From Kondoa subrosea (lineage: Eukaryota): a stretch of 64,000 nt of DNA. The notes below the pieces were generated by a model. That model saw only the letters and a program-made list of their open reading frames with translations. It ran no database searches and was not told where the DNA came from. Shown piece after piece: positions 6,121 to 28,439 of this stretch. A program made the position numbers and the translations under genes. The DNA is taken from positions 755,528 to 819,527 of the forward strand of contig BCIN01000008.1 in the NCBI GenBank assembly GCA_039545335.1. Reading direction: 5' to 3'. Each line of letters opens with the position of its first letter. The first letter of the stretch is position 1.

Positions 6121-6715
6121 ATGAAAGGACCCAAGAGGTTGCAACGAGCTTTCGCGTGGAACAGATCTAGAAGGACAGGATGGCTATACTTTCGTCAAAG
6201 CCAGATTGATCAGATTCAAGAATGGCTGCAGCATGTAAGGCTCCTTTCTTCTCATACCTCAAGCTGCGAGATATCATTCTGTCGATCATTTATTGCTCTT
6301 TCTGCTCGGTGCGACGTCCTCACAAACGATTTCCAATCACTAGTTTTCCTGTTCGTCGTCCGTTCGGGCAGCCGCTGGGTAAATGGCTTGCGAAACCTAG
6401 CTAGAACGTTGTTCAACGGGATGTCTTCGGTTCGTGCGACTTCCCAGCGCATATGCCGGTCAAAAGTGCTTCCATAGCGAGAACGAGTTCTTATCTCGGC
6501 TTCGCTTGGGTCTCGCATTTCTTTGTCTTCCTTAATTTCCCACTCGTCACCAAACATGATGCTTATTTTGCTCTACGCTTATCTTTTTTAGCTCCAGCTC
6601 AAACACTCTATTGGAAGAATTGGCTGTAAATTCAGCTACCTCGTTCACAGCTTTAGGCATCTAGACCGACCATCAGATGTCTCATGTCGTGCTCAAGAGC
6701 GTGATATTCGCTAGC
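6121..6715 (+). pseudogene. Truncated/degenerate paralogue of the 7173-9119 gene (N-terminal part only), retaining a long intron 6235-6591
   Basis: 'YFRQSQIDQIQEWLQH|GTAAGG' matches 'YFPAHQIQQIQEWLRN|GTTAGT' of the 7173 gene at the same intron position; the next exon only weakly matches after a frameshift (LYWKNW vs IFWTDL) and stops. Confidence 0.6.
6340..6470 (+). ncRNA. Conserved structured intronic element, copy A
   Basis: CTTCGGT 6425-6431 and GCCGGTC 6455-6461; CGACTTCCCAGCG..TATGCCGGT shared with copy B; inside 357-nt intron 6235-6591. Confidence 0.6.
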
Positions 6716-7172: not shown

Positions 7173-9119
7173 ATGGCTTTCACTGCCGCTACCACGAGCA
7201 CAGCATCAAGTACCTCTCCCAACTCAGCTGATCTGAATTCCGAAGTCTTCACCAATTGCATCTCTACCCTTGAATTCAATAAAGCTTGTCTCACTCATTT
7301 CGCGGCGACCGTAATCATCAAGCACCAGCCCAGAACAGAAGTTCATCTGCACGCTCTAGTCAACAACATTTTGCAAGATGTCATCGGTGAACTTGAAGGA
7401 CAGATGAGCAAAGGCAGAGATCCATATTTTCCGGCGCATCAAATACAACAAATCCAGGAATGGTTGCGCAATGTTAGTATCCTTCCGTCTGTCACTCCAG
7501 TCTGCGAGACCCAAACCCATACACTCCACCAATTGCTCTATACCATGCCTTTAAAGACAGCTTCAGATCCCTAATTCTCTCGTCCGCCGTTCTGTGGGAA
7601 CGGAGGCTGTGTTGTTATGGGTCGAAGCTGAGCTTTGTGCATGGTCGAATGGACTGCCTTCGGTCGCACGACTTCCCAGCGTGTATGCCGGTTCCAAGTG
7701 TAACCAATCGTGAAATGAGCTCGCCTTCCTGATCTTCTTGGGTCTCGCAGTCTTGGCTTGATTGCTTTCCTTGTTGATTACGAGTAGAAGCTGATTTTGC
7801 GTTTGTGTTTTACTAGATCAGAGCGCAGAACATCTTTTGGACGGATTTGCGAGAAGAATGCCAGAGAAATCCAACACATGCTCTTTCAGACTTCTTCAAG
7901 TATAGAACTCCAAGACAGGTTCGTGTTCTCTTCTAAAGTAATGATCGCTACTGAGATTGCCTCCCACAGCCAAAATCCACTTCGGCTATTGGACGACCTG
8001 ATCGCAATGGTAGATCACAAGCGAAGCGTGCAGGTCTACCAATGGTAGTCATTCCTCTGATCCTGCCGCAGTTATCGGAAGCAGGTGAGTCTCTTTGCTC
8101 CTTCTTCTGATGTCTTTATCTGACCACACTCGAGTAGATTTAGGCACCTTTACTCCTCGGCAATTTGCTCATGTCACGTTAGACTTCCTGATGATTGGCA
8201 CCGATTCGATGAGGCGATCCCTTAATCTTGCGCCTGAACCTTCTTATGGCTTGATCATCCCTGGTGTCGAGCGACTCGAATCACTCTTCAAGCGAGATGC
8301 AAATAATGTGAGAGATTCAGACTGGATAGAGCAGACGGATGCTGCAAAGCTTTTCCGAAGGCTTGAGAGAAGAAGGTCAGTCTTCATTTCTGCTTGTCGG
8401 CAGGCCAGAACTGAATTGCTTTGTGCAGAATGGTGACACAAGATACCAGCTCGGAGGGAAACTTCATCAGAAACATCTTCAGCCACGGAATGTACACCCA
8501 GGGAGAAGAGACGCGCGGCCTGTTGAGGCTGATTGCTTCATTCATTGTGCTTTGCGGGGAATTGAGTGAGTCTTGCCCCTTTGACGGCTTCTCTGACATA
8601 TTCTTACTATTGGGCGCAGATGACGACATCGGCTTGCAAGAGGTCTTCAAGCTTGAACGCGAAATCATTCAAGAGCGTACAAAACCTGCAGCAGCTATCT
8701 CACCTTGTACTCCTACGTCTCTCCGCTCTGCCACTCCATGCGAATCAGACTTCGATCAAGCTTCTTTGGCTTCTTCTGATGTCTCCTCCTCTGAAATCGA
8801 AAGCATCTCATCGGAATCAAGCATCTCTTCTGCAGCTACTTCAGCCATTCCAAGTTGTTGCTCTGCAAGCTTGTCAAACACGAGTCTTCCGATCGTATCG
8901 TCTCCGATATCAGCTTTTGATGAGGAAGAATTCTTGGAAGAAGTAGCTGATCGCGAAGAGATCGCACTGTGGCTGTCACCCAAGTATGCTTCCCGCAAGC
9001 GCAAGCTCGATGAGTACGAGGAAGAAGATGAAGTCGCTGTAAGATCGCCGAAGAGATCTGGAAACAGGGCTGTCCGGTGGCTAAAGGGAGTGTGGAATGC
9101 ACTCATCGACTTCTCGTAG
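7173..9119 (+). CDS. Uncharacterised protein with HEPN-like RNxxxHG motif, Ser-rich tail and RKRK NLS-like motif; about 6 exons, long first intron 7473-7816
   Basis: Exons join in frame (7173-7472, from 7817 IRAQNIFWTDLREECQRNPTHALSDFFKY, DLGTFTPRQFAHVTLD.., SEGNFIRNIFSHGMYTQG at ~8451-8503); clear paralogue at 17.3-19.6 kb. Confidence 0.75.
7558..7700 (+). ncRNA. Conserved structured intronic element, copy B
   Basis: CAGCTTC(7558)/GAAGCTG(7624) stem, CCGTTC-TGTGG-GAACGG hairpin 7587-7603, TGC-CTTCGGTC-GCA ~7655-7668, GCCGGTT 7687-7693; intron also closed by a perfect 13-bp inverted repeat 7502-7514/7738-7750. Confidence 0.7.
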
Positions 9120-9349
9120 CTGAATTGTATGTATCATCTGGGTCTTGTCGATTAGCTGTACAGTGTAACATTGCTTAGTAATCATATTCAAACTACATGT
9201 TCTTCTTACTTTGCTCTTCGGTCGCCCTCTTTGTCATGTGATGAGAATCTTAATCTGGAGAGCATCGCTGTTCTCCAAGAAGGCACAGATCTCGTAATGC
9301 AGTCGTTGCTTGTTTTCAACAATTTGCAGGGCTCTTGGCTTGTGCGACG

Positions 9350-10255
9350 ATGCACCAAAGAAAACGGTCGCTTACCTTGAGCTCTTCCGACTCCGATGAT
9401 GGATCATCTGTAGCTGTCAAGTCCAGCAAGTCTGATACACCTCTAGCGTGAGCTGCAACATGGCCACACAAAAGTAAACAATCTCATTCGTCTGCATTAC
9501 TCGCAGCCCTATCTCTTATGCTTGCACACTTCCTCCTACCTGCTCTGCATCGAAACCTACAGTCTTTGACTCGTACCCTGCTTTGGAAGCACATCATGCA
9601 TCGCATCACGCTTTCCTTTGCACGCTAGCGGACTGCAGCAAGATCTTTCCAGACGAGCGATACCTGAACTTGCATTTCAGCGAATGTCATAATCCTCTGA
9701 TAGCTGTCAAAGCTGAGAGGGGCGAGAAGACTGTTTGTTAGCCATGGCTCTGGCAAAAGTGTAGAGCTAATTCTTCAAGCACAGTTTGCGTGCTTCGAAA
9801 CGACATGTACTAGGAAGTTCGCAACCCCGAAAACTCGTCGACTCCATCTTATTGATGCACATCAGTATCCCAAGCAAGTATGTTTCCCTTATCTTTGCAT
9901 ACATACATGAACCTCGCTCATTGCGTGCCAGTTCTACTTCTCTTTGCCTGCTAAAGGTTTGAACGATCTCTACAAGAAGTACGGATCGGCTGTCAGTCTA
10001 GTTCGACCAGATTGGAAAGCTCGACCCGATAAAATGGACGATTCTCGATCTACTTCATCTGCTTCAAGAAGTCCAGAACCACTTCAATCGCTCAGTGAAG
10101 TACCTAAACAGATAGAAGAGAATACTGTCGAATATGTAAAGGTGCAAGAGCAGAGAGAGGATCATGAAATGGACAGATTGGTAGACAAGTTCAGCGCAAG
10201 CAGGATGTTTGTTCCCAATCAGATTCGATTTGGCAAGAAAGGAGCAAAGAAGTAG
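9350..10255 (+). CDS. C2H2 zinc-finger protein, ZNF511-like
   Basis: Exons read 'CTLADCSKIFPDERYLNLHFSECHNPL..ERGEKT|FACFETTCTRKFATPKTRRLHLIDAHQYPK'; start codon approximate. Confidence 0.8.
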
Positions 10256-10761
10256 CTGGCTTGTTCGAGCGTCGACGCAGCTTTAAAGCTGTTCGATGTA
10301 GTAGTAAAGTAAGCGGTGCGTCTAGTCTCTCAGCCTGTTGTTGTTCAGTTACAACTCTGAAGCGTTAGGCGACTGTACGAATATGGTCACCTGATGGATC
10401 AACGTTCACCATCCTCTTGCCTGCGAGGCCACGTTCACACGAAGACTGCTAGCTTTCAAGCTCCCTCCTTCCGAACGTGCAGATATTCAGAGATAGCGGA
10501 AGCGCCAAAATAAGGATCATTTAGCGGCCGGTCAATTGATCGAGTTGAACAAGAGAACCACTGTTTCGCAGGACAAACCACTACTGATGGCTTATGGAAT
10601 GGCTGAGACCGACTGAGAGTGCTCGAGATTTCTAGCTCGTCTGTGACGGGTTTGGACAATTATAAGCTATTGTACAACTTCAATGCATGTCTAGTCTACC
10701 TATACCTCTTTCTTCATCAGGCATGCTGGCTTGTCAACTGCCCAAGCAGACCACAACGAAT

Positions 10762-17226: not shown

Positions 17227-17460
17227 TTGGTTACTGGCAAGAGGATGATGTATGTATGCTTCTGCGGCTGCTTGTTTATGCTCGCTCATTATATATATAT
17301 TCAGTCTGTGTTGCGAATTTGGTTTCTTTTTCAGAATGCATTGTCAATCGAAACAGAAGTCAATGCTGGGCTCTTATCCTGCCTCGAAGTTCAGCAACAT
17401 CATCGATAGTGTGAGTCAACCACTTCTTCCTGTAGCGGCTCGGAAAGTCTCTCTTCCTTT

Positions 17461-17632
17461 AGCTGTGATCGATCAAAGTCAACCTGTCGTTCGTCTGTGG
17501 GACGTTGGATATGTGACTGGACTCGGCAGCTATCTTGTGGCCCTGCTGGAGCTTCTCTGCAATTGCCTTCGGTTGTACTCTACACAATGAACGTGTTGGC
17601 CGGTCATAAAGTGCTTCGGGAGAGCTACAGCT
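17461..17632 (+). ncRNA. Conserved structured intronic element, copy C
   Basis: In 326-nt intron 17411-17736; AGCTGT/GCAGCT and AGTCA/TGACT stems, CGTC-TGTGG-GACG, CTTCGGT 17567-17573, GCCGGTC 17599-17605. Confidence 0.7.
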
Positions 17633-17860
17633 GTTTTCGTATATTTCTCCTTTTTTTGGGTTTTACTTTTGCTGCCGCTGCTTCTTATATCCTTTCTTGC
17701 GTTTCCGTGTCTGACTATGTTTCTGGTTGTCTTTAGGGTCGTCCAAGCTAAGTCAATAATACAGTCGCTGAAGGCAATGCTCGATATTTTCCGCGACAGG
17801 ATTTGACTTCTGGACGTTTTCCTTGAGAGGGTTAGTGCTTTCTTTTTGCTGCCTATCTTC

Positions 17861-18031
17861 AGCTATGTCCGATCAAAGTCATCCGCGCATTTGTCTATGG
17901 GACGAATGGGAGTGTGACTCGACTCTACTTAGCTACTCTTTTGGCTCGTTGGAGATTTCTTGAGATTGCCTTCGGTCGCACTCTTACCAATTAATGTGCT
18001 GGCCGGTCAGAAAGAGCTTTCACGAAAGCTC
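17861..18031 (+). ncRNA. Conserved structured intronic element, copy D
   Basis: In 293-nt intron 17831-18123; AGCTATGT/ACTTAGCT, AGTCAT/GTGACT, CATTTGTC-TATGG-GACGAATG, CTTCGGT 17970-17976, GCCGGTC 18002-18008, GAGCTTT-CACG-AAAGCTC 18014-18031. Confidence 0.72.
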
Positions 18032-20594
18032 CAGCCCTTTTTCCTTTTCTTTTTACTGCTGCCGCTGCATTTTTGCTTTCGTGTCATTCATCTCAGCTGA
18101 GTGATTTTTCTTCGGGTCTGTAGCCTCAGGATCGTCAAGCTATCTTCCGCAAGATTCGACGACAAGTACAAACGGATGAGACTCACCCTCTGCATGCATT
18201 CTTTCAGTACTCTCGACATGTTCGTCTTTTGTCCTGCATAATCTCTACTTGGCTGACCTTTCTTGAACTAGCCCCGCACTACTGGAGCAAAGCCGAAACC
18301 AGGGCGAGAGAACAGGATATCACCTAGCAAAGATGCTAAAGGCAAGAAGCAACAAGCTATATCTGGTATGCTTCATGCTTCTTCACACTTCAAGTGTCTT
18401 ATTGTGAAACCTTTATAGCGACTAGAAGTCGTCAACCTGAAGAAGCTGAAGATATTGTTGCACCAGCTCCTTCTGTTCCTATTGCTTCTTCTTCCGCAGT
18501 TCCCGCAATGTCTTCTAGTGAGGCTTCTCCACTTACTATCTGAGCAGCTGCTAACATTCTCTTCCAGATCTCAATGAAATCACAGCTGAAGAATTTGCTC
18601 ATCTGATTTTGGATATCATCATGGTCATCACTAAAGCTCTGCGGAAAAAGCTCAATCTACCTGTCGCAAATTCCTATCGTCCAGTCATACCGGACCAAGA
18701 GCCACTTCGCTTCCTCTTCACTCGCAAACCGGACGGCACTCGAGCTTTCGATTATATAGATCAGGAAGATCTGATTGCTCTGCTGCGACTAGCTAGAGAT
18801 AAAAGGTCAGCTCTTTCTGATACTCAGATCAACATGGACTCACATTGCCTAAATAGACACATCGACGAGGACATGTTCAGCGAACAGAATTTCCTTCGCA
18901 ATCTCTTTTGTCATGGTACTTTTACTCAAGGCGTAGAGGCTGGCGCGGTCCTCCGAGTGATCACTGCTGCAATCATTTTATGCAATCAGCTTGGTCAGTC
19001 CTTTCCTTGCCGGTCATTTTAAGCAATTCCTCATTTGCTCTTGTTTTTAGGTGATGTAGAAGCTCGCAAGAAGATCTTTGAGCTGGAAAAGAACGTCGTG
19101 CAAAGACATTGGGAAAATCTACCTTCGACCCAATCTTCTGGATCTTCTTATGCTTCTTCTGCATCTTCCTCAACACCTTTAGAAGTACTCACAATAAGCA
19201 CAGAGTCTTCTTCTCCCTCCGACGCAGACAGCGATAGCTCTTGTATCGATTCGGCTCCGAAAGCGATACCTCTTCGCGGTCTAGCACCTCTTCTACCACA
19301 TCACTCAACACAACAATTAGCTCTGCAGCATGCTCTTGTTCTCATATCGATTATACAGTCGTCGATGAATCAGAAGAATGCGATCAAGTCGCTCAAATCT
19401 TGCTCTCTGCCTCTTCCTCTCGCAAACGCAAGTATTCAGAAGTGGTAGAAGAAGAGGAGCAAGAGGAAGAAGGAGAAGCAGGAGTTGTCCGTTCCAAAGC
19501 AGTTCAGACACCTTTTAGCCCAATCCGATACATCAAGCGATTGAAGAGAAGCATTGGTGCTGGAGTACAGGAGATCGGAGGAGCGCTGAAGAAGATGGGT
19601 GAAGCAGCAACGGATTTCTCGTAAATTTGCATTCTTTGTAAAGTATGGTTGTTAAGTTTTCTTGTATTTACACTGAAGAGAATCATATTTATATCGTTAA
19701 TGTAATATCATGCACTTACATTTGTTTGCTTACCTGTTGATATTGTTCCCTCTGAACCAGACATGCATATGGGTGTCTTGCTCAAAACCCAGAAACAGTG
19801 ACTTACCGAGAGCATGGCAACATATGTATAATGGCATAGGCTCATGGTAAGAAAATGAGCACGATTCCTCAGAAGTCATGGGCTACTGCCTAGAGCTGCA
19901 GCTACACAAGAAGCACTCAAACACATAAGAAACACTCGAAGAAAGAATACGCCTCGTGAGAACATGAAGGTATAGAAAGAGAGTTCTGGAGATTGATTGC
20001 GAAAATACAACCAGTAGAGAGAGGCAAGAAACGCAACGAATGGACGATAGAGACATGCATCGAAGATTGTATGGAAAGGTGAAGAAAACACTTGCATCGG
20101 GAAGCTCTATGAAGCTAAGCAAACTCACACAATGCAAGAGAGACAGAGAGTCGTCGCTGAGAAGAAGAGCCTCTTCCCTGCCAGCAGTTCTTCCGGTCCG
20201 GCATCCGACCTTCTGTGCTTCGGAGCTGCGACTCGTCGAGAGATGTCAGCGATGCTGTGACTGGTGAATATCCTACGACACCTATATCCACTCATCAGTA
20301 CCAGATCCGTCGCCTGCAAGGTCAAACTTCGATTGACAAAACGCTTTGTTGTCGTCCCTTCGTCGCGCGCTCAGGAATCGCTTGAACGCTGCTCAGCTCC
20401 CCCGGCATAGCTGGTAGCTCTCCTGTACAGCAACTACGAGACTCTTACTTCGCTATCCTCGCGGCTTCCAGTGAGCGACCTGTCGACAATGCACAGTGCT
20501 CTGCAAGTTCGATTCAAGTTTCTGCCCTCTTAAGAACCTCTCTCTTGCCTCTGCCATCAACAATCATATACATACAAGTCCGTAGACATAGCGC

Positions 20595-27509: not shown

Positions 27510-27769
27510 CAGTAGCGCACTAGTCAGGACAATATAGCTCTGAAGTCGTTCAATTCACTTCCATTACAAGTTTGCATTCAAATCTATCTTCACTATTCCC
27601 ATACATACTACATACGTTCAATCTCTTGCGCATATCAAAGCCATCACCCTTCAAACCCATCATACGCATGATTCGCATCAAAATAAGGTAAAGCACTCTT
27701 AGAGGACCATCCGCTGACGAGACAGTCATAGATCCAACTAGCCAGAAACAAGCAAAAACAGAGGGGAAG

Positions 27770-27947
27770 AAGCCTTTCCTGAGACGCTCTTTTTGACCGG
27801 CCAGCACATTGATTGTGTAGAATGCGACCGAAGGCATTCTCGAAGGAAAGCTTCAAACAAGGCCAATGAAGTAGCTAAGTAGGAGCTCGAGGCACAAACC
27901 CATTCGGCCCATAGACAAATGTGCGGGCGACTACGATCGTACTTAGC
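27770..27947 (-). ncRNA. Conserved structured element, copy E, in a putative 266-nt intron (27714-27979) of a short or non-coding transcript
   Basis: Minus strand: perfect GCTAAGTA/TACTTAGC stem, CATTTG..TATGG..CGAATG hairpin, AGAATGC-CTTCGGTC-GCATTCT, ATTGGCC/GGCCGGT; closely similar to copy D. Confidence 0.7.
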
Positions 27948-28439
27948 AGAATGTAGGCGAAGAAGAGCGAGAGTCGTACACTGCATGTAGCAGCCACGAC
28001 AAGCGCGAAGCAAGAGCTCGAGTGACGAGTCTTGGAGGAAAGAAGAGAAGGCGCAAAGGGGTCCGATTTCAGGAACGAGGATTGTGAGCTTGTAAGCTAG
28101 CAGCTGATTCTCGAATGCGGAAGACAATAAGCAAAGGGTTGGGCTATAAACGAAGCGAAGCCTTGACAGACCCATTCCAGAAGAAGACATGTATGAGAGA
28201 TGGAATGCATGTGTGTGTAGACAGAAAACGAGATGAGACTTGAGGAGTGAGTGCTTATTGATCTGTAAACACCGTCAGTACCTTCTAATACCAGACGTAC
28301 TGCAAACCTTTTTTGAGGTCCGCCGAACCCTATGATAGTCAGGCAAAATGTCAACAATGATAGTGCTCATGGTCACTTTGCGAGCTCACCTGACGTTGAA
28401 CGCCCCAGCCATGCGCGTACTGCGAATGAAAGCCTTAGT

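What the first reader, a model, noticed from the sequence alone, without database searches (positions are those of the whole stretch)
17461..18031. Covarying multi-hairpin architecture of the intronic RNA
Seen: arm 1 basal stem changes sequence but keeps pairing (B CAGCTTC/GAAGCTG; C AGCTGT/GCAGCT; D AGCTATGT/ACTTAGCT; E GCTAAGTA/TACTTAGC). Its apical stem also covaries around a conserved URUGG loop (B CCGTTC/GAACGG; C CGTC/GACG; D CATTTGTC/GACGAATG). Arm 2 has TGC-cUUCGg-UC-GCA at the apex in B, D and E and closes with TGGCY/GGCCG in C-E. CTTCGGT and GCCGGT are invariant in all five copies, 22-25 nt apart. No reading frame is preserved across copies. I do not recognise C/D boxes, consistent H/ACA boxes, TPP, hammerhead or HDV cores. 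Inference: selection acts on RNA structure, and this may be an undescribed ncRNA class.
Basis: partly seen in the sequence, partly recalled or inferred. Interest (0 to 1): 0.8.

Follow-up and report, generated by a model that had tools for sequence, protein, structure and literature searches.

The report
Conserved structured element in fungal introns
A folded RNA element of about 180 bases is repeated in the unusually long first introns of a small fungus-specific gene family, where it probably controls how those introns are spliced rather than being a free-standing new RNA class.

Summary
Five copies share CTTCGGT and GCCGGT 22-25 nt apart (5 matches, 0.01 expected): A 6.4 kb, B 7.6 kb, C 17.5 kb, D 17.9 kb (+) and E 27.8 kb (-). 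No Rfam family matches, and there are no snoRNA or hammerhead boxes.

B-E fold into two long hairpin arms. A keeps only the arm-2 apex. Stems are kept through wobble and double changes, and changes concentrate in unpaired positions.

New here: A-D lie in GT-AG introns of 304-357 nt, against about 52 nt for neighbouring introns. The hosts are two paralogous orphan genes. In A, B and C a long-range "zipper" helix encloses the element (B: 13 bp, 1 of 300 shuffles).

Best reading (0.45): a cis-acting intron module, in which a zipper compacts the intron and a conserved apex acts as a recognition site that tunes splicing. Rivals: a trans-acting intron-derived RNA, a small-RNA precursor, a duplication relic, a mobile element.

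There are no RNA data and no relatives outside this genome, so "new ncRNA class" is not shown. Interest is moderate.

The parts
6235..6591 (+). Intron A (GTAAGG...TTTTTTAG, 357 nt). It lies in a truncated duplicate of the exon 1/intron 1 junction, upstream of gene B.
   Evidence: Sequence. The upstream exon reads ...YFRQSQIDQIQEWLQH against B's ...YFPAHQIQQIQEWLRN.
6265..6271 (+). Zipper 5' strand of intron A (TGCGAGA). It pairs with 6511-6517 (TCTCGCA).
   Evidence: Alignment of A and B. Duplex search: dG -25.6 kcal/mol, reached by 7 of 300 shuffles.
6511..6517 (+). Zipper 3' strand of intron A, inside the 13-nt block CTTGGGTCTCGCA that is identical in A and B.
6417..6472 (+). Copy A, arm-2 apex. 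P4 is UCGGU/GCCGG, the inner stem is GUGCG/CGCAU, and the loop is ACUUCCCAG.
   Evidence: (model R1, E = 0.0034)
7473..7816 (+). Intron 1 of gene B (GTTAGT...TTTTACTAG, 344 nt).
7502..7514 (+). Zipper 5' strand of intron B (CTGCGAGACCCAA). It forms 13 perfect pairs with 7738-7750.
   Evidence: Present in the minimum-energy fold of the whole intron. Duplex dG -36.5 kcal/mol, reached by 1 of 300 shuffles.
7738..7750 (+). Zipper 3' strand of intron B (TTGGGTCTCGCAG).
7558..7630 (+). Copy B, arm 1 (long hairpin; apical stem CCGUUC/GAACGG).
   Evidence: -32.2 kcal/mol, z = -3.88, reached by 0 of 200 shuffles
7629..7723 (+). Copy B, arm 2 (closing stem GAGCUU/GAGCUC; apex 7649-7704).
   Evidence: z = -1.99; R1, E = 0.19
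17411..17736 (+). Intron-like unit C (GTGAGT...TCTTTAG, 326 nt).
   Evidence: sequence; splice consensus only
17432..17439 (+). Zipper 5' strand of unit C (GTAGCGGC). It pairs with 17674-17681 (GCCGCTGC).
   Evidence: dG -32.0 kcal/mol, reached by 3 of 300 shuffles
17674..17681 (+). Zipper 3' strand of unit C, inside the block TGCTGCCGCTGC. Unit D carries the same block at 18056-18067.
17460..17532 (+). Copy C, arm 1.
   Evidence: z = -2.37
17536..17629 (+). Copy C, arm 2 (apex 17558-17617).
   Evidence: The closing stem forms, but the minimum-energy apex differs from the model (z = -0.53).
17737..17830 (+). 94-nt exon-like segment between C and D. It is homologous to the exon piece before C, and it carries stop codons in the frame set by the ATG at 17336 and in the frame that would join exon 3.
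   Evidence: The reading as a cassette or poison exon, or as part of one 719-nt intron, is inference.
17831..18129 (+). Intron-like unit D (GTTAGT...CCTCAG, 299 nt). Exon 3 (DRQAIFRK...) starts at 18130.
   Evidence: Exon 3 is homologous to exon 2 of gene B (read from the sequences).
17861..17934 (+). Copy D, arm 1.
   Evidence: z = -2.33
17948..18035 (+). Copy D, arm 2 (apex 17961-18020).
   Evidence: z = -3.12
27743..27958 (-). Copy E, a solo copy 77% identical to D over 216 nt. Arm 1 is 27874-27947, arm 2 is 27769-27854, and the apex is 27783-27842.
   Evidence: (arm 2 z = -3.56). No host-gene homology. No significant zipper.
7173..9119 (+). Host gene B, an orphan with the motif NFIRNIFSHG.
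17336..19624 (+). Host gene CD, a paralog of B (38-46% amino-acid identity in the conserved exons) with the motif NFLRNLFCHG.

Best explanation
The element is a cis-acting structural module of the long 5'-proximal introns of a lineage-specific gene family in a fungus, probably a basidiomycete.

A long-range zipper helix pairs a site 20-30 nt after the 5' splice site with a site about 33-48 nt before the putative branch point. This loops out about 235-250 nt and brings a 326-357 nt intron down to the effective size of this genome's usual ~52-nt introns (shown by sequence and folding; the effect on splicing is inferred).

The looped-out part is two long hairpin arms. The apex of arm 2 runs: stem GCCU/AG-GY, a 4-6 nt bulge UCA(N)AA, stem UCGGU(C)/(G)GCCGG, a covarying inner stem, and a conserved loop. 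It is the most constrained piece. I infer that it is a recognition site for a protein, possibly the host gene's own product, that sets how efficiently the intron is removed. That would be an autoregulatory or family-wide splicing control.

The tandem arrangement seen at both host loci in this window (A+B and C+D), with a stop-bearing 94-nt segment between C and D, would fit regulated inclusion or retention. That last step is speculation.
For: - Five copies against 0.01 expected by chance.
- A-D sit between GT and AG with fungal splice consensus, in paralogous genes and at the homologous exon junction.
- Three other introns that I read by eye in these genes are about 52 nt (sequences).
- Zipper helices: B has 13 perfect pairs, present in the whole-intron minimum-energy fold, dG -36.5, reached by 1 of 300 shuffles. 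A: -25.6, 7 of 300. C: -32.0, 3 of 300.
[quoted passage not shown] Here the totals are about 72, 78 and 54 nt, using branch points that I assigned by motif.
- Conservation peaks on the element and on the zipper strand, not on the rest of the intron. C against D: 70-77% in the element and 30-40% in most flanking windows, with a second, smaller rise to 60-63% over the shared downstream block at about 17653-17697. A against B: 70-77% at the apex and 63-70% at the zipper 3' strand.
- Apex pairing is kept: 14 of 14 pairs in each of C, D and E. D and E differ at 1 of 28 paired against 9 of 32 unpaired positions, p = 0.014. A against B shows two double changes in the inner stem (GUGCG/CGCAU against GCACG/CGUGU).
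- Arm 2 folds better on the sense strand than on the antisense strand. Sense z = -1.99, -0.53, -3.12, -3.56; antisense z = -1.15, -0.20, -0.38, -2.56.
- A known precedent for this mechanism is the yeast RPL7B intron, with a zipper stem plus a conserved protein-binding structure (PMC12311795, abstract read).
Against: - No RNA data. No RNA run is listed for this organism, so neither splicing nor the introns themselves are shown.
- D has no zipper of its own (147 of 300 shuffles reach its score). One intron spanning C and D is not significant either (80 of 300).
- E has no zipper (31 of 300), no recognisable host gene and no proven intron, yet it keeps the whole apex and a stable arm 2. That fits a function independent of the host intron better.
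- Mere compaction does not explain why loop sequences are conserved. ACUUCCCAG is identical in A and B while the adjacent stem changed.
- Copy A's arms are no more stable than shuffles (z = -0.05 and +0.41).
- There are only five sequences from one genome. Gene conversion among copies could mimic conservation.
- C-D and C-E paired/unpaired contrasts are not significant (p = 0.067 and 0.23).
- Arm 1 shows broken pairs as well as kept ones: 9 broken cells among 25 pairs x 3 copies.
- Binding by the host protein is pure inference.
Confidence: 0.45

Rival explanations
1. The element is a stable non-coding RNA released from the spliced intron (as intronic snoRNAs are) that acts in trans. The introns are only its vehicle.
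For: - E is a solo copy whose homology with D (216 nt, 77%) covers little more than the element itself. It still keeps 14 of 14 apex pairs and a stable arm 2 (z = -3.56).
- Loop sequences are conserved.
- The truncated A locus keeps the apex.
- No known family matches, so it would be new.
Against: - No snoRNA-type boxes or protective terminal motifs: C box in 0 of 5 copies, and D has no ACA and no ANANNA at all.
- Arm 1 and the closing stem are lost in A.
- The element is known only inside one gene family of one genome.
- A metagenome pattern scan gave 48 loci; none shows the conserved inner-stem sequence in the spacer and 2 of 48 have the upstream TRTGGG motif, so all look like chance.
- There is no high-copy or dispersed distribution.
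- Whether it is expressed as a discrete RNA is untested.
Confidence: 0.2
2. The similarity is a relic of recent tandem and dispersed duplication of exon+intron units, perhaps refreshed by gene conversion, and the element has no function of its own.
For: - Each copy comes with a homologous exon piece and 5' splice site, which shows duplication of whole units.
- A is partly degenerate. E carries mismatches in arm 1.
- Arm 1 has as many broken as compensated cells.
- Only five sequences, so there is no formal covariation test.
Against: - The element is far better conserved than the intron sequence around it. It is also better conserved than the exon pieces: C against D is 30-37% in the upstream exon piece and 70-77% in the element.
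- Substitutions avoid paired positions (D-E p = 0.014).
- All 42 apex pair cells in C, D and E are standard pairs.
- A and B have two double changes that keep the inner stem while the loop between them stays identical.
- Another contig of the same genome matches only short pieces of the A-B introns at 80% or more (6236-6289, 6435-6473, 7651-7702); two of the three are the arm-2 apex.
Confidence: 0.15
3. The arms are precursors of small RNAs (fungal microRNA-like RNAs or hairpin siRNAs) made from the intron, possibly targeting the gene family itself.
For: - Two imperfect hairpins of 75-95 nt.
- Both strands of the arm-2 apex are the most conserved part.
- The exon-like segment 17763-17783 is complementary to the 5' strand of D's apex (dG -23.7, reached by 1 of 300 shuffles). 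The best sites for B and C fall at the homologous exon position.
Against: - The apex duplex is only 14 pairs, interrupted by a 4-6 nt bulge. That is short for Dicer products.
- The exon complementarity is not significant for A, B, C or E (94, 45, 281 and 201 of 300 shuffles reach it).
- There are no small-RNA data.
- I do not know whether this fungus has RNAi.
Confidence: 0.1
4. The element is a small mobile element (introner-like element, MITE or SINE) that inserted into introns. The 'zipper' strands would be its terminal inverted repeats.
For: - B has a 13-bp perfect inverted repeat 249 nt end to end.
- E is a dispersed solo copy.
- T-runs follow C, D and E.
Against: - The inverted repeats differ between groups (CTGCGAGA... 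in A and B, GTAGCGGC in C, none in D or E). Terminal repeats of one family should be the best conserved part.
- A-D sit at the homologous position of paralogous units, so they were inherited by duplication rather than inserted.
- Laying the genome's own contigs at 80% likeness showed no extra copies of C or D apart from E, and one further locus for A/B.
- No tRNA-like part.
Confidence: 0.06

Closest known systems
Zipper-stem introns of budding yeast (RPS17B, RPL7A, RPL28 and others; PMC12350175, passages read)
   Same: A long-range helix lies between a site shortly after the 5' splice site and a site before the branch point. Its length and linker distances fall inside the published limits in A, B and C. 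It occurs in introns much longer than the genome's norm. Elaborate stems are looped out between the zipper strands.
   Different: A different fungal lineage and non-ribosomal orphan host genes. In yeast the zipper regions are poorly conserved in sequence (20-30% per that paper). Here the 3' strand is a 13-nt block identical in A and B, and the looped-out insert is itself conserved across paralogs.
RPL7B intron autoregulation (PMC12311795, abstract read). RPL18B and RPS22B appeared only in the search listing.
   Same: A first intron with a zipper stem plus a separate conserved structure. In RPL7B that structure binds the gene's own protein and represses splicing. This is the mechanism I propose.
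   Different: In RPL7B the conserved structure is mutually exclusive with the zipper. Here the conserved arms are nested inside the zipper, and exclusivity was not shown. The binding protein is unknown. There are tandem copies at each of the two host loci and a solo copy.
Intronic snoRNAs (box C/D and H/ACA)
   Same: A conserved structured RNA of 100-200 nt housed in an intron and better conserved than the rest of the intron.
   Different: The defining boxes are absent and there is no Rfam match.
Introner-like elements of fungi (recalled from memory, not read here)
   Same: Unusually long introns with predicted stable structure, present in several copies.
   Different: Introner-like elements, as I recall them, are near-identical copies in unrelated genes. 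Here the copies are diverged (59-77%), few, and confined to paralogous units plus one solo copy.

Membership tests
Any Rfam 15 family (snoRNAs, ribozymes, riboswitches including TPP, snRNAs) | A covariance-model score at or above the family's gathering threshold | tested here: not met
   0 matches in the whole window. At E up to 10 over all five copies there were only scattered hits of 12.6-18.5 bits, each on a single copy or beside one, far below the gathering scores.
Box C/D snoRNA | C box RUGAUGA near the 5' end and D box CUGA near the 3' end, joined by a terminal stem | tested here: not met
   C box in 0 of 5 copies. CUGA only in B.
Box H/ACA snoRNA | Hairpin, H box ANANNA, hairpin, then ACA 3 nt from the 3' end | tested here: not met
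   D has no ACA and no ANANNA anywhere. The other copies have none at a shared position.
Hammerhead ribozyme | Conserved core CUGANGA | tested here: not met
   0 of 5 copies. No Rfam ribozyme match.
Zipper-stem intron (definition of PMC12350175) | [quoted passage not shown] | tested here: met
   Met for three of the four intron units. B: 13 bp, 29+43 nt. A: 7 bp, 30+48 nt. C: 8 bp, 21+33 nt. Duplex energies were reached by 1, 7 and 3 of 300 shuffles. Branch points were assigned by motif only. Not met for D (147 of 300) or E (31 of 300).
Zipper-stem intron | The stem forms in vivo and promotes splicing | not testable with these tools
   No RNA run is available for this organism. This needs DMS probing and reporter mutants.
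Autoregulatory intron structure (RPL7B type) | The conserved intron structure is bound by the host gene's protein and represses splicing | not testable with these tools
   The host protein is an orphan with no usable model.
Introner-like element / MITE | Many similar copies in unrelated sites, with shared termini or terminal inverted repeats | tested here: not met
   Laying the source genome's contigs at 80% likeness showed only E as an extra copy of C/D and one further A/B-like locus. The inverted repeats differ between copies.
microRNA-like precursor | Discrete 20-24 nt products from a hairpin arm | not testable with these tools
   No RNA runs.
HEPN ribonuclease (host protein, not the RNA) | An Rx4-6H motif at the start of the last helix of a four-helix bundle | tested here: inconclusive
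   An RNxxxH motif is present in both paralogs and nowhere else in the six-frame translation. The Atlas gives feature-level leads to HEPN clusters at 0.85-0.87, which is below the reliable range. No Pfam, PADLOC or PDB sequence match. The AlphaFold model is all-helical but has pLDDT 42. The description of the HEPN motif is recalled from memory.

The most novel reading that the evidence does not exclude
The host genes encode a fungal HEPN-like ribonuclease family (RNxxxH motif), and the conserved two-arm RNA in their own introns is that enzyme's cognate RNA. It would be either a self-recognition substrate through which the nuclease cleaves or blocks its own pre-mRNA, or a released RNA cofactor. 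The solo copy E would then be a free-standing gene for the RNA. This would be a eukaryotic protein-RNA pair with no described relative.
Probability: 0.1. Interest if true: 0.7.

Novelty: new variant of a known kind. Interest (0 to 1): 0.4.

Why it matters
Structured introns that control their own splicing are well documented almost only in budding-yeast ribosomal protein genes. Here zipper stems enclose a sequence-conserved two-arm insert in a different fungal lineage, repeated across a paralogous orphan gene family. That would extend the principle and give a compact system for testing how intron structure sets splicing: natural variants A-E already supply disrupted and compensated stems. If the element instead proves to be a released RNA, or the partner of a HEPN-like host protein, it would be a new RNA family. 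As it stands it is a well-defined candidate confined to one genome, without expression data.

Tried and rejected
- Whole-genome search: no genome is held for this window.
- Sequencing runs: only two DNA rows from one sample, the possible source, were listed. No RNA holder was listed, so expression could not be examined.
- Read laying was used instead to look for further genomic copies. 17 of the 20 laid pieces were not displayed, so the copy count is a lower bound.
- Metagenome pattern scan (TGCCTTCGGT N15-35 GCCGGT N3-4 AAGWG): 48 loci. None shows the conserved inner-stem sequence in the spacer and 2 of 48 have the upstream TRTGGG motif, so all were judged chance, by eye. The pattern excludes A-like variants.
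- Host protein relatives: none among longer proteins. One spurious repeat protein among 1.84 billion representatives. No orthologous introns could therefore be fetched.
- AlphaFold on the host core: pLDDT 42, so no fold search was attempted.
- The covariance model R1 of the apex, built from C, D and E, found A (E = 0.0034) and B (E = 0.19) and no sixth copy. The next hit had E = 0.44. Its alignment did not place A's inner stem, so pair counts for A and B were read from their folds.
- A kissing interaction between the arm-1 apical UGGG and the arm-2 loop CCCA is possible in A and B but absent in C-E. Rejected by eye.
- K-turn, T-loop and Pol III A/B boxes were considered from memory and not found by eye.
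- Antisense ORFs across A and B: rejected, because a 1-nt indel shifts the frame between A and B.
- The exon-like segment 17737-17830 as a hairpin: z = -0.77, not notable.
- Extra matches of GCCGGTCA (10527, 19009) and TGTCTTCGGT (48796) are unrelated sequence.
- No tRNA-like gene. The bacterial promoter/terminator scan around E found nothing and does not apply to a fungus.
Full report
**What is there**

The pattern CTTCGGT N15-35 GCCGGT occurs five times in the 64-kb window, against 0.01 expected from shuffles. The sites are 6425 (A), 7658 (B), 17567 (C) and 17970 (D) on the + strand, and 27796-27833 on the - strand (E).

A covariance model of the 60-nt core, built from C, D and E, was run over the whole window with filters off. 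It recovered A (E = 0.0034) and B (E = 0.19) and nothing else convincing; the next hit had E = 0.44.

Rfam gives no match at gathering thresholds. At E up to 10 over all five copies it gives only isolated sub-threshold hits. Box C/D, H/ACA and hammerhead core motifs are absent, and ARAGORN finds no tRNA-like gene. Every copy has stops in at least two of its three sense frames. The terminal loop differs by 5 nt between the A/B and C/D/E groups, and a 1-nt indel separates A from B, so no sense or antisense frame is shared.

**Setting**

The window is fungal. It holds LIM, GRAB-golgin, E1 dehydrogenase and RING genes. An OMP-decarboxylase ORF has its nearest Atlas cluster mostly in Basidiomycota. 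No whole genome is held, and the source run holds about 19 Mb of contigs.

Two paralogous genes carry the element: B (about 7173-9119) and CD (17336-19624). They share 38-46% amino-acid identity in their conserved exons. They have no Pfam family. They have no relatives among 1.84 billion representative proteins apart from one spurious repeat protein, and none among longer proteins.

- B lies in intron 1 of gene B (7473-7816, GTTAGT...TACTAG).
- A lies in a homologous intron (6235-6591) of a truncated duplicate of the exon 1/intron 1 junction, 1.2 kb upstream. Compare ...YFRQSQIDQIQEWLQH|GTAAGG with ...YFPAHQIQQIQEWLRN|GTTAGT.
- C (17411-17736) and D (17831-18129) are two tandem exon-piece+intron units ahead of exon 3 of gene CD. 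That exon (DRQAIFRK...) is homologous to exon 2 of B.
- The 94-nt piece between C and D (17737-17830) carries stop codons in the relevant frames. Either C and D belong to one 719-nt intron, or the piece is a stop-bearing cassette exon. This is inference.
- Three other introns that I could read by eye in these genes are about 52 nt, so the host introns are roughly six times the local norm.
- E is a solo copy. It is 77% identical to D over 216 nt with no similarity beyond, and no host-family coding sequence is nearby.

Laying the source genome's own contigs at 80% likeness showed no further copies of C or D apart from E. It also showed one other contig with short pieces like A's and B's arm-2 apex and like the start of intron A, followed by a duplicate of 8928-10300. 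So at least one more locus exists, and the family is low-copy. 17 of the 20 laid pieces were not displayed, so this is a lower bound.

**Structure**

B, C, D and E fold into two long irregular hairpins. Arm 1 is about 75 nt, with a basal stem, a middle stem and an apical stem capped by U(G/A)UGG. Against 200 dinucleotide shuffles it gives z = -3.88 (B), -2.37 (C), -2.33 (D), -1.17 (E) and -0.05 (A). Arm 2 is about 90 nt and gives -1.99, -0.53, -3.12, -3.56 and +0.41 in the same order. Three exon pieces beside the elements gave z = +0.12, +1.44 and +0.49.

D's basal stem has one U-U mismatch, and E has two U-C mismatches higher up. In the C/D/E alignment, arm 1 shows 9 broken cells among 25 pairs x 3 copies, next to a few wobble changes and one double change. 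Arm 1 is therefore a kept hairpin rather than a strongly covarying one.

From the base upward:
- a variable closing stem, for example D UGGAGaUUUC/GAAAgCUCCA and E GAAGCUUUCCU/AGGAAAgGCUUC;
- a 4-bp stem GCCU/AG(n)GY;
- a 4-6 nt bulge UCA(N)AA on the 3' side;
- a stem UCGGU(C)/(G)GCCGG, which uses both invariant words;
- an inner stem of 4-5 bp;
- a loop of 9 nt (ACUUCCCAG, identical in A and B) or 14 nt (UCUnnnCAAUnAAU in C-E).

It has no counterpart in A and B.

The inner stem reads GUGCG/CGCAU (A), GCACG/CGUGU (B), GUAC/GUGU (C), GCAC/GUGC (D) and GCAU/GUGC (E). A differs from B by two double changes (U-A for C-G, and G-C for A-U). Six further single changes across the apex all give G-U or U-G pairs. 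C, D and E each keep 14 of 14 standard pairs.

Differences fall on unpaired positions. D-E: 1 of 28 paired against 9 of 32 unpaired (Fisher p = 0.014). C-D: 3/28 against 10/32 (p = 0.067). C-E: 4/28 against 9/32 (p = 0.23).

The many G-U pairs make arm 2 fold worse on the antisense strand, where z = -1.15, -0.20, -0.38 and -2.56 for B, C, D and E. This points to an RNA read in the sense of the host genes. Arm 1 does not discriminate between strands. With five sequences from one genome none of this amounts to a formal covariation test.

**Conservation profile**

Between C and D, identity is 70-77% across the element and 30-40% in most of the flanking intron and the exon piece. There is a second, smaller rise to 60-63% over the shared downstream block at about 17653-17697. 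Between A and B it peaks at the arm-2 apex (70-77%), at a downstream 13-nt block (63-70%) and at the exon/5' splice site junction (70%).

**The zipper**

The downstream block in A and B, CTTGGGTCTCGCA, is the 3' strand of a long-range helix. Its 5' strand lies 29-30 nt after the 5' splice site.
- In B it is 13 perfect pairs (7502-7514 with 7738-7750). It appears in the minimum-energy fold of the whole intron and scores -36.5 kcal/mol, reached by 1 of 300 shuffles.
- A keeps 7-8 pairs (-25.6; 7 of 300).
- C has a different helix in the same place: GTAGCGGC at 17432-17439 with GCCGCTGC at 17674-17681 (-32.0; 3 of 300).
- D (147 of 300), C+D taken as one intron (80 of 300) and E (31 of 300) have none.

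With branch points assigned by motif (CTGAT at 7794, GCTTAT at 6565, CTGAC at 17714), the linkers total about 72, 78 and 54 nt. [quoted passage not shown] That paper also notes that such architectures let internal stems project away from the spliceosome, where partners could bind.

The inverted repeats differ between copy groups, and the copies sit at homologous positions of duplicated units. This argues against terminal repeats of a mobile element.

**Interpretation**

The best-supported reading (about 0.45) is a cis-acting intron module. The zipper compacts an abnormally long intron. This is shown at the level of sequence and folding; the effect on splicing is inferred. The looped-out arms, above all the arm-2 apex with its conserved bulge and loop, serve as a recognition site that modulates splicing. 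This is inferred from the pattern of constraint.

The nearest documented mechanism is the RPL7B intron, where a zipper stem enhances splicing and a separate conserved structure binds Rpl7 to repress it (PMC12311795, abstract read). Here the conserved structure is nested in the zipper rather than shown to compete with it, and the binding factor is unknown.

The main weakness is E and, to a lesser degree, D. E keeps the apex and a very stable arm 2 without a detectable zipper, intron or host. A small-RNA precursor gets 0.1, a functionless duplication relic 0.15, and a mobile element 0.06.

**Limits**

- No RNA run is listed for this organism, so splicing and RNA accumulation are untested.
- No relatives were found. 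The metagenome pattern scan gave 48 loci; none shows the conserved inner-stem sequence in the spacer and 2 of 48 have the upstream TRTGGG motif, so I judged all of them chance, by eye. Eukaryotic genomes cannot be searched with these tools.
- Gene models rest on consensus signals and paralog homology.
- Gene conversion among copies cannot be excluded.

**Verdict**

The feature is real and non-random. The multi-hairpin description is largely right for B-E, with a corrected arm 2. "Selection on RNA structure" is moderately supported. "New ncRNA class" is not established. It is best filed as a new, lineage-specific variant of the structured, zipper-stem intron, with an unexplained conserved apex.

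Noticed in passing
window 8466-8489 and 18894-18917 (+): Both host paralogs carry NF(I/L)RN(I/L)F(S/C)HG, an RNxxxH motif. It is found nowhere else in the six-frame translation. The Atlas's nearest clusters by features include HEPN/RnlA/Csm6-HEPN families at 0.85-0.87, which is below the reliable range. There is no HMM or PDB sequence support, and the AlphaFold model is helical but has pLDDT 42. A possible HEPN-like RNase; unproven.
   Followed up: partly
window 17763-17783 (+) against 17961-17978 (+): The exon-like segment before D is complementary to the 5' strand of D's conserved apex (dG -23.7 kcal/mol, reached by 1 of 300 shuffles). For B and C the best upstream site falls at the homologous exon position but is not significant (45 and 281 of 300). 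For A and E the best site is elsewhere and is not significant either (94 and 201 of 300). It may be a competing exon-intron helix, or chance.
   Followed up: partly
window 17597-17606 and 18000-18009 (+): UGGCCGGUCA is a quasi-palindrome once G-U pairs are allowed. In the fold of the whole C-D region the two copies pair with each other. A and B lack this property.
   Followed up: no
window 8928-10300 (+): A second contig of the same genome carries a diverged duplicate of this stretch (the end of gene B and a zinc-finger-like ORF region). In that contig it is preceded by short pieces resembling A's and B's arm-2 apex (6435-6473, 7651-7702) and the start of intron A (6236-6289). This looks like a segmental duplication holding another family member.
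   Followed up: partly
window 17634-17667, 18033-18055 (+); 27745-27765 (-): Runs of 4-7 T follow copies C, D and E within about 15 nt of the end of arm 2. A and B have none. These could be pyrimidine tracts or Pol III-type terminators.
   Followed up: no
window 8376-8428, 18519-18569, 19003-19055 (+): Ordinary introns of the host genes are about 52 nt, with GTNAGT-type 5' sites and CTAAC-like branch points (read by eye). The element-bearing introns are about six times longer.
   Followed up: partly
window 17255-17273, 17668-17686, 18052-18070 (+): A GC-rich word (CTGCGGCTGC or TGCTGCCGCTGC) recurs upstream of gene CD and after both C and D. Only the copy after C has a clear pairing partner.
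   Followed up: partly
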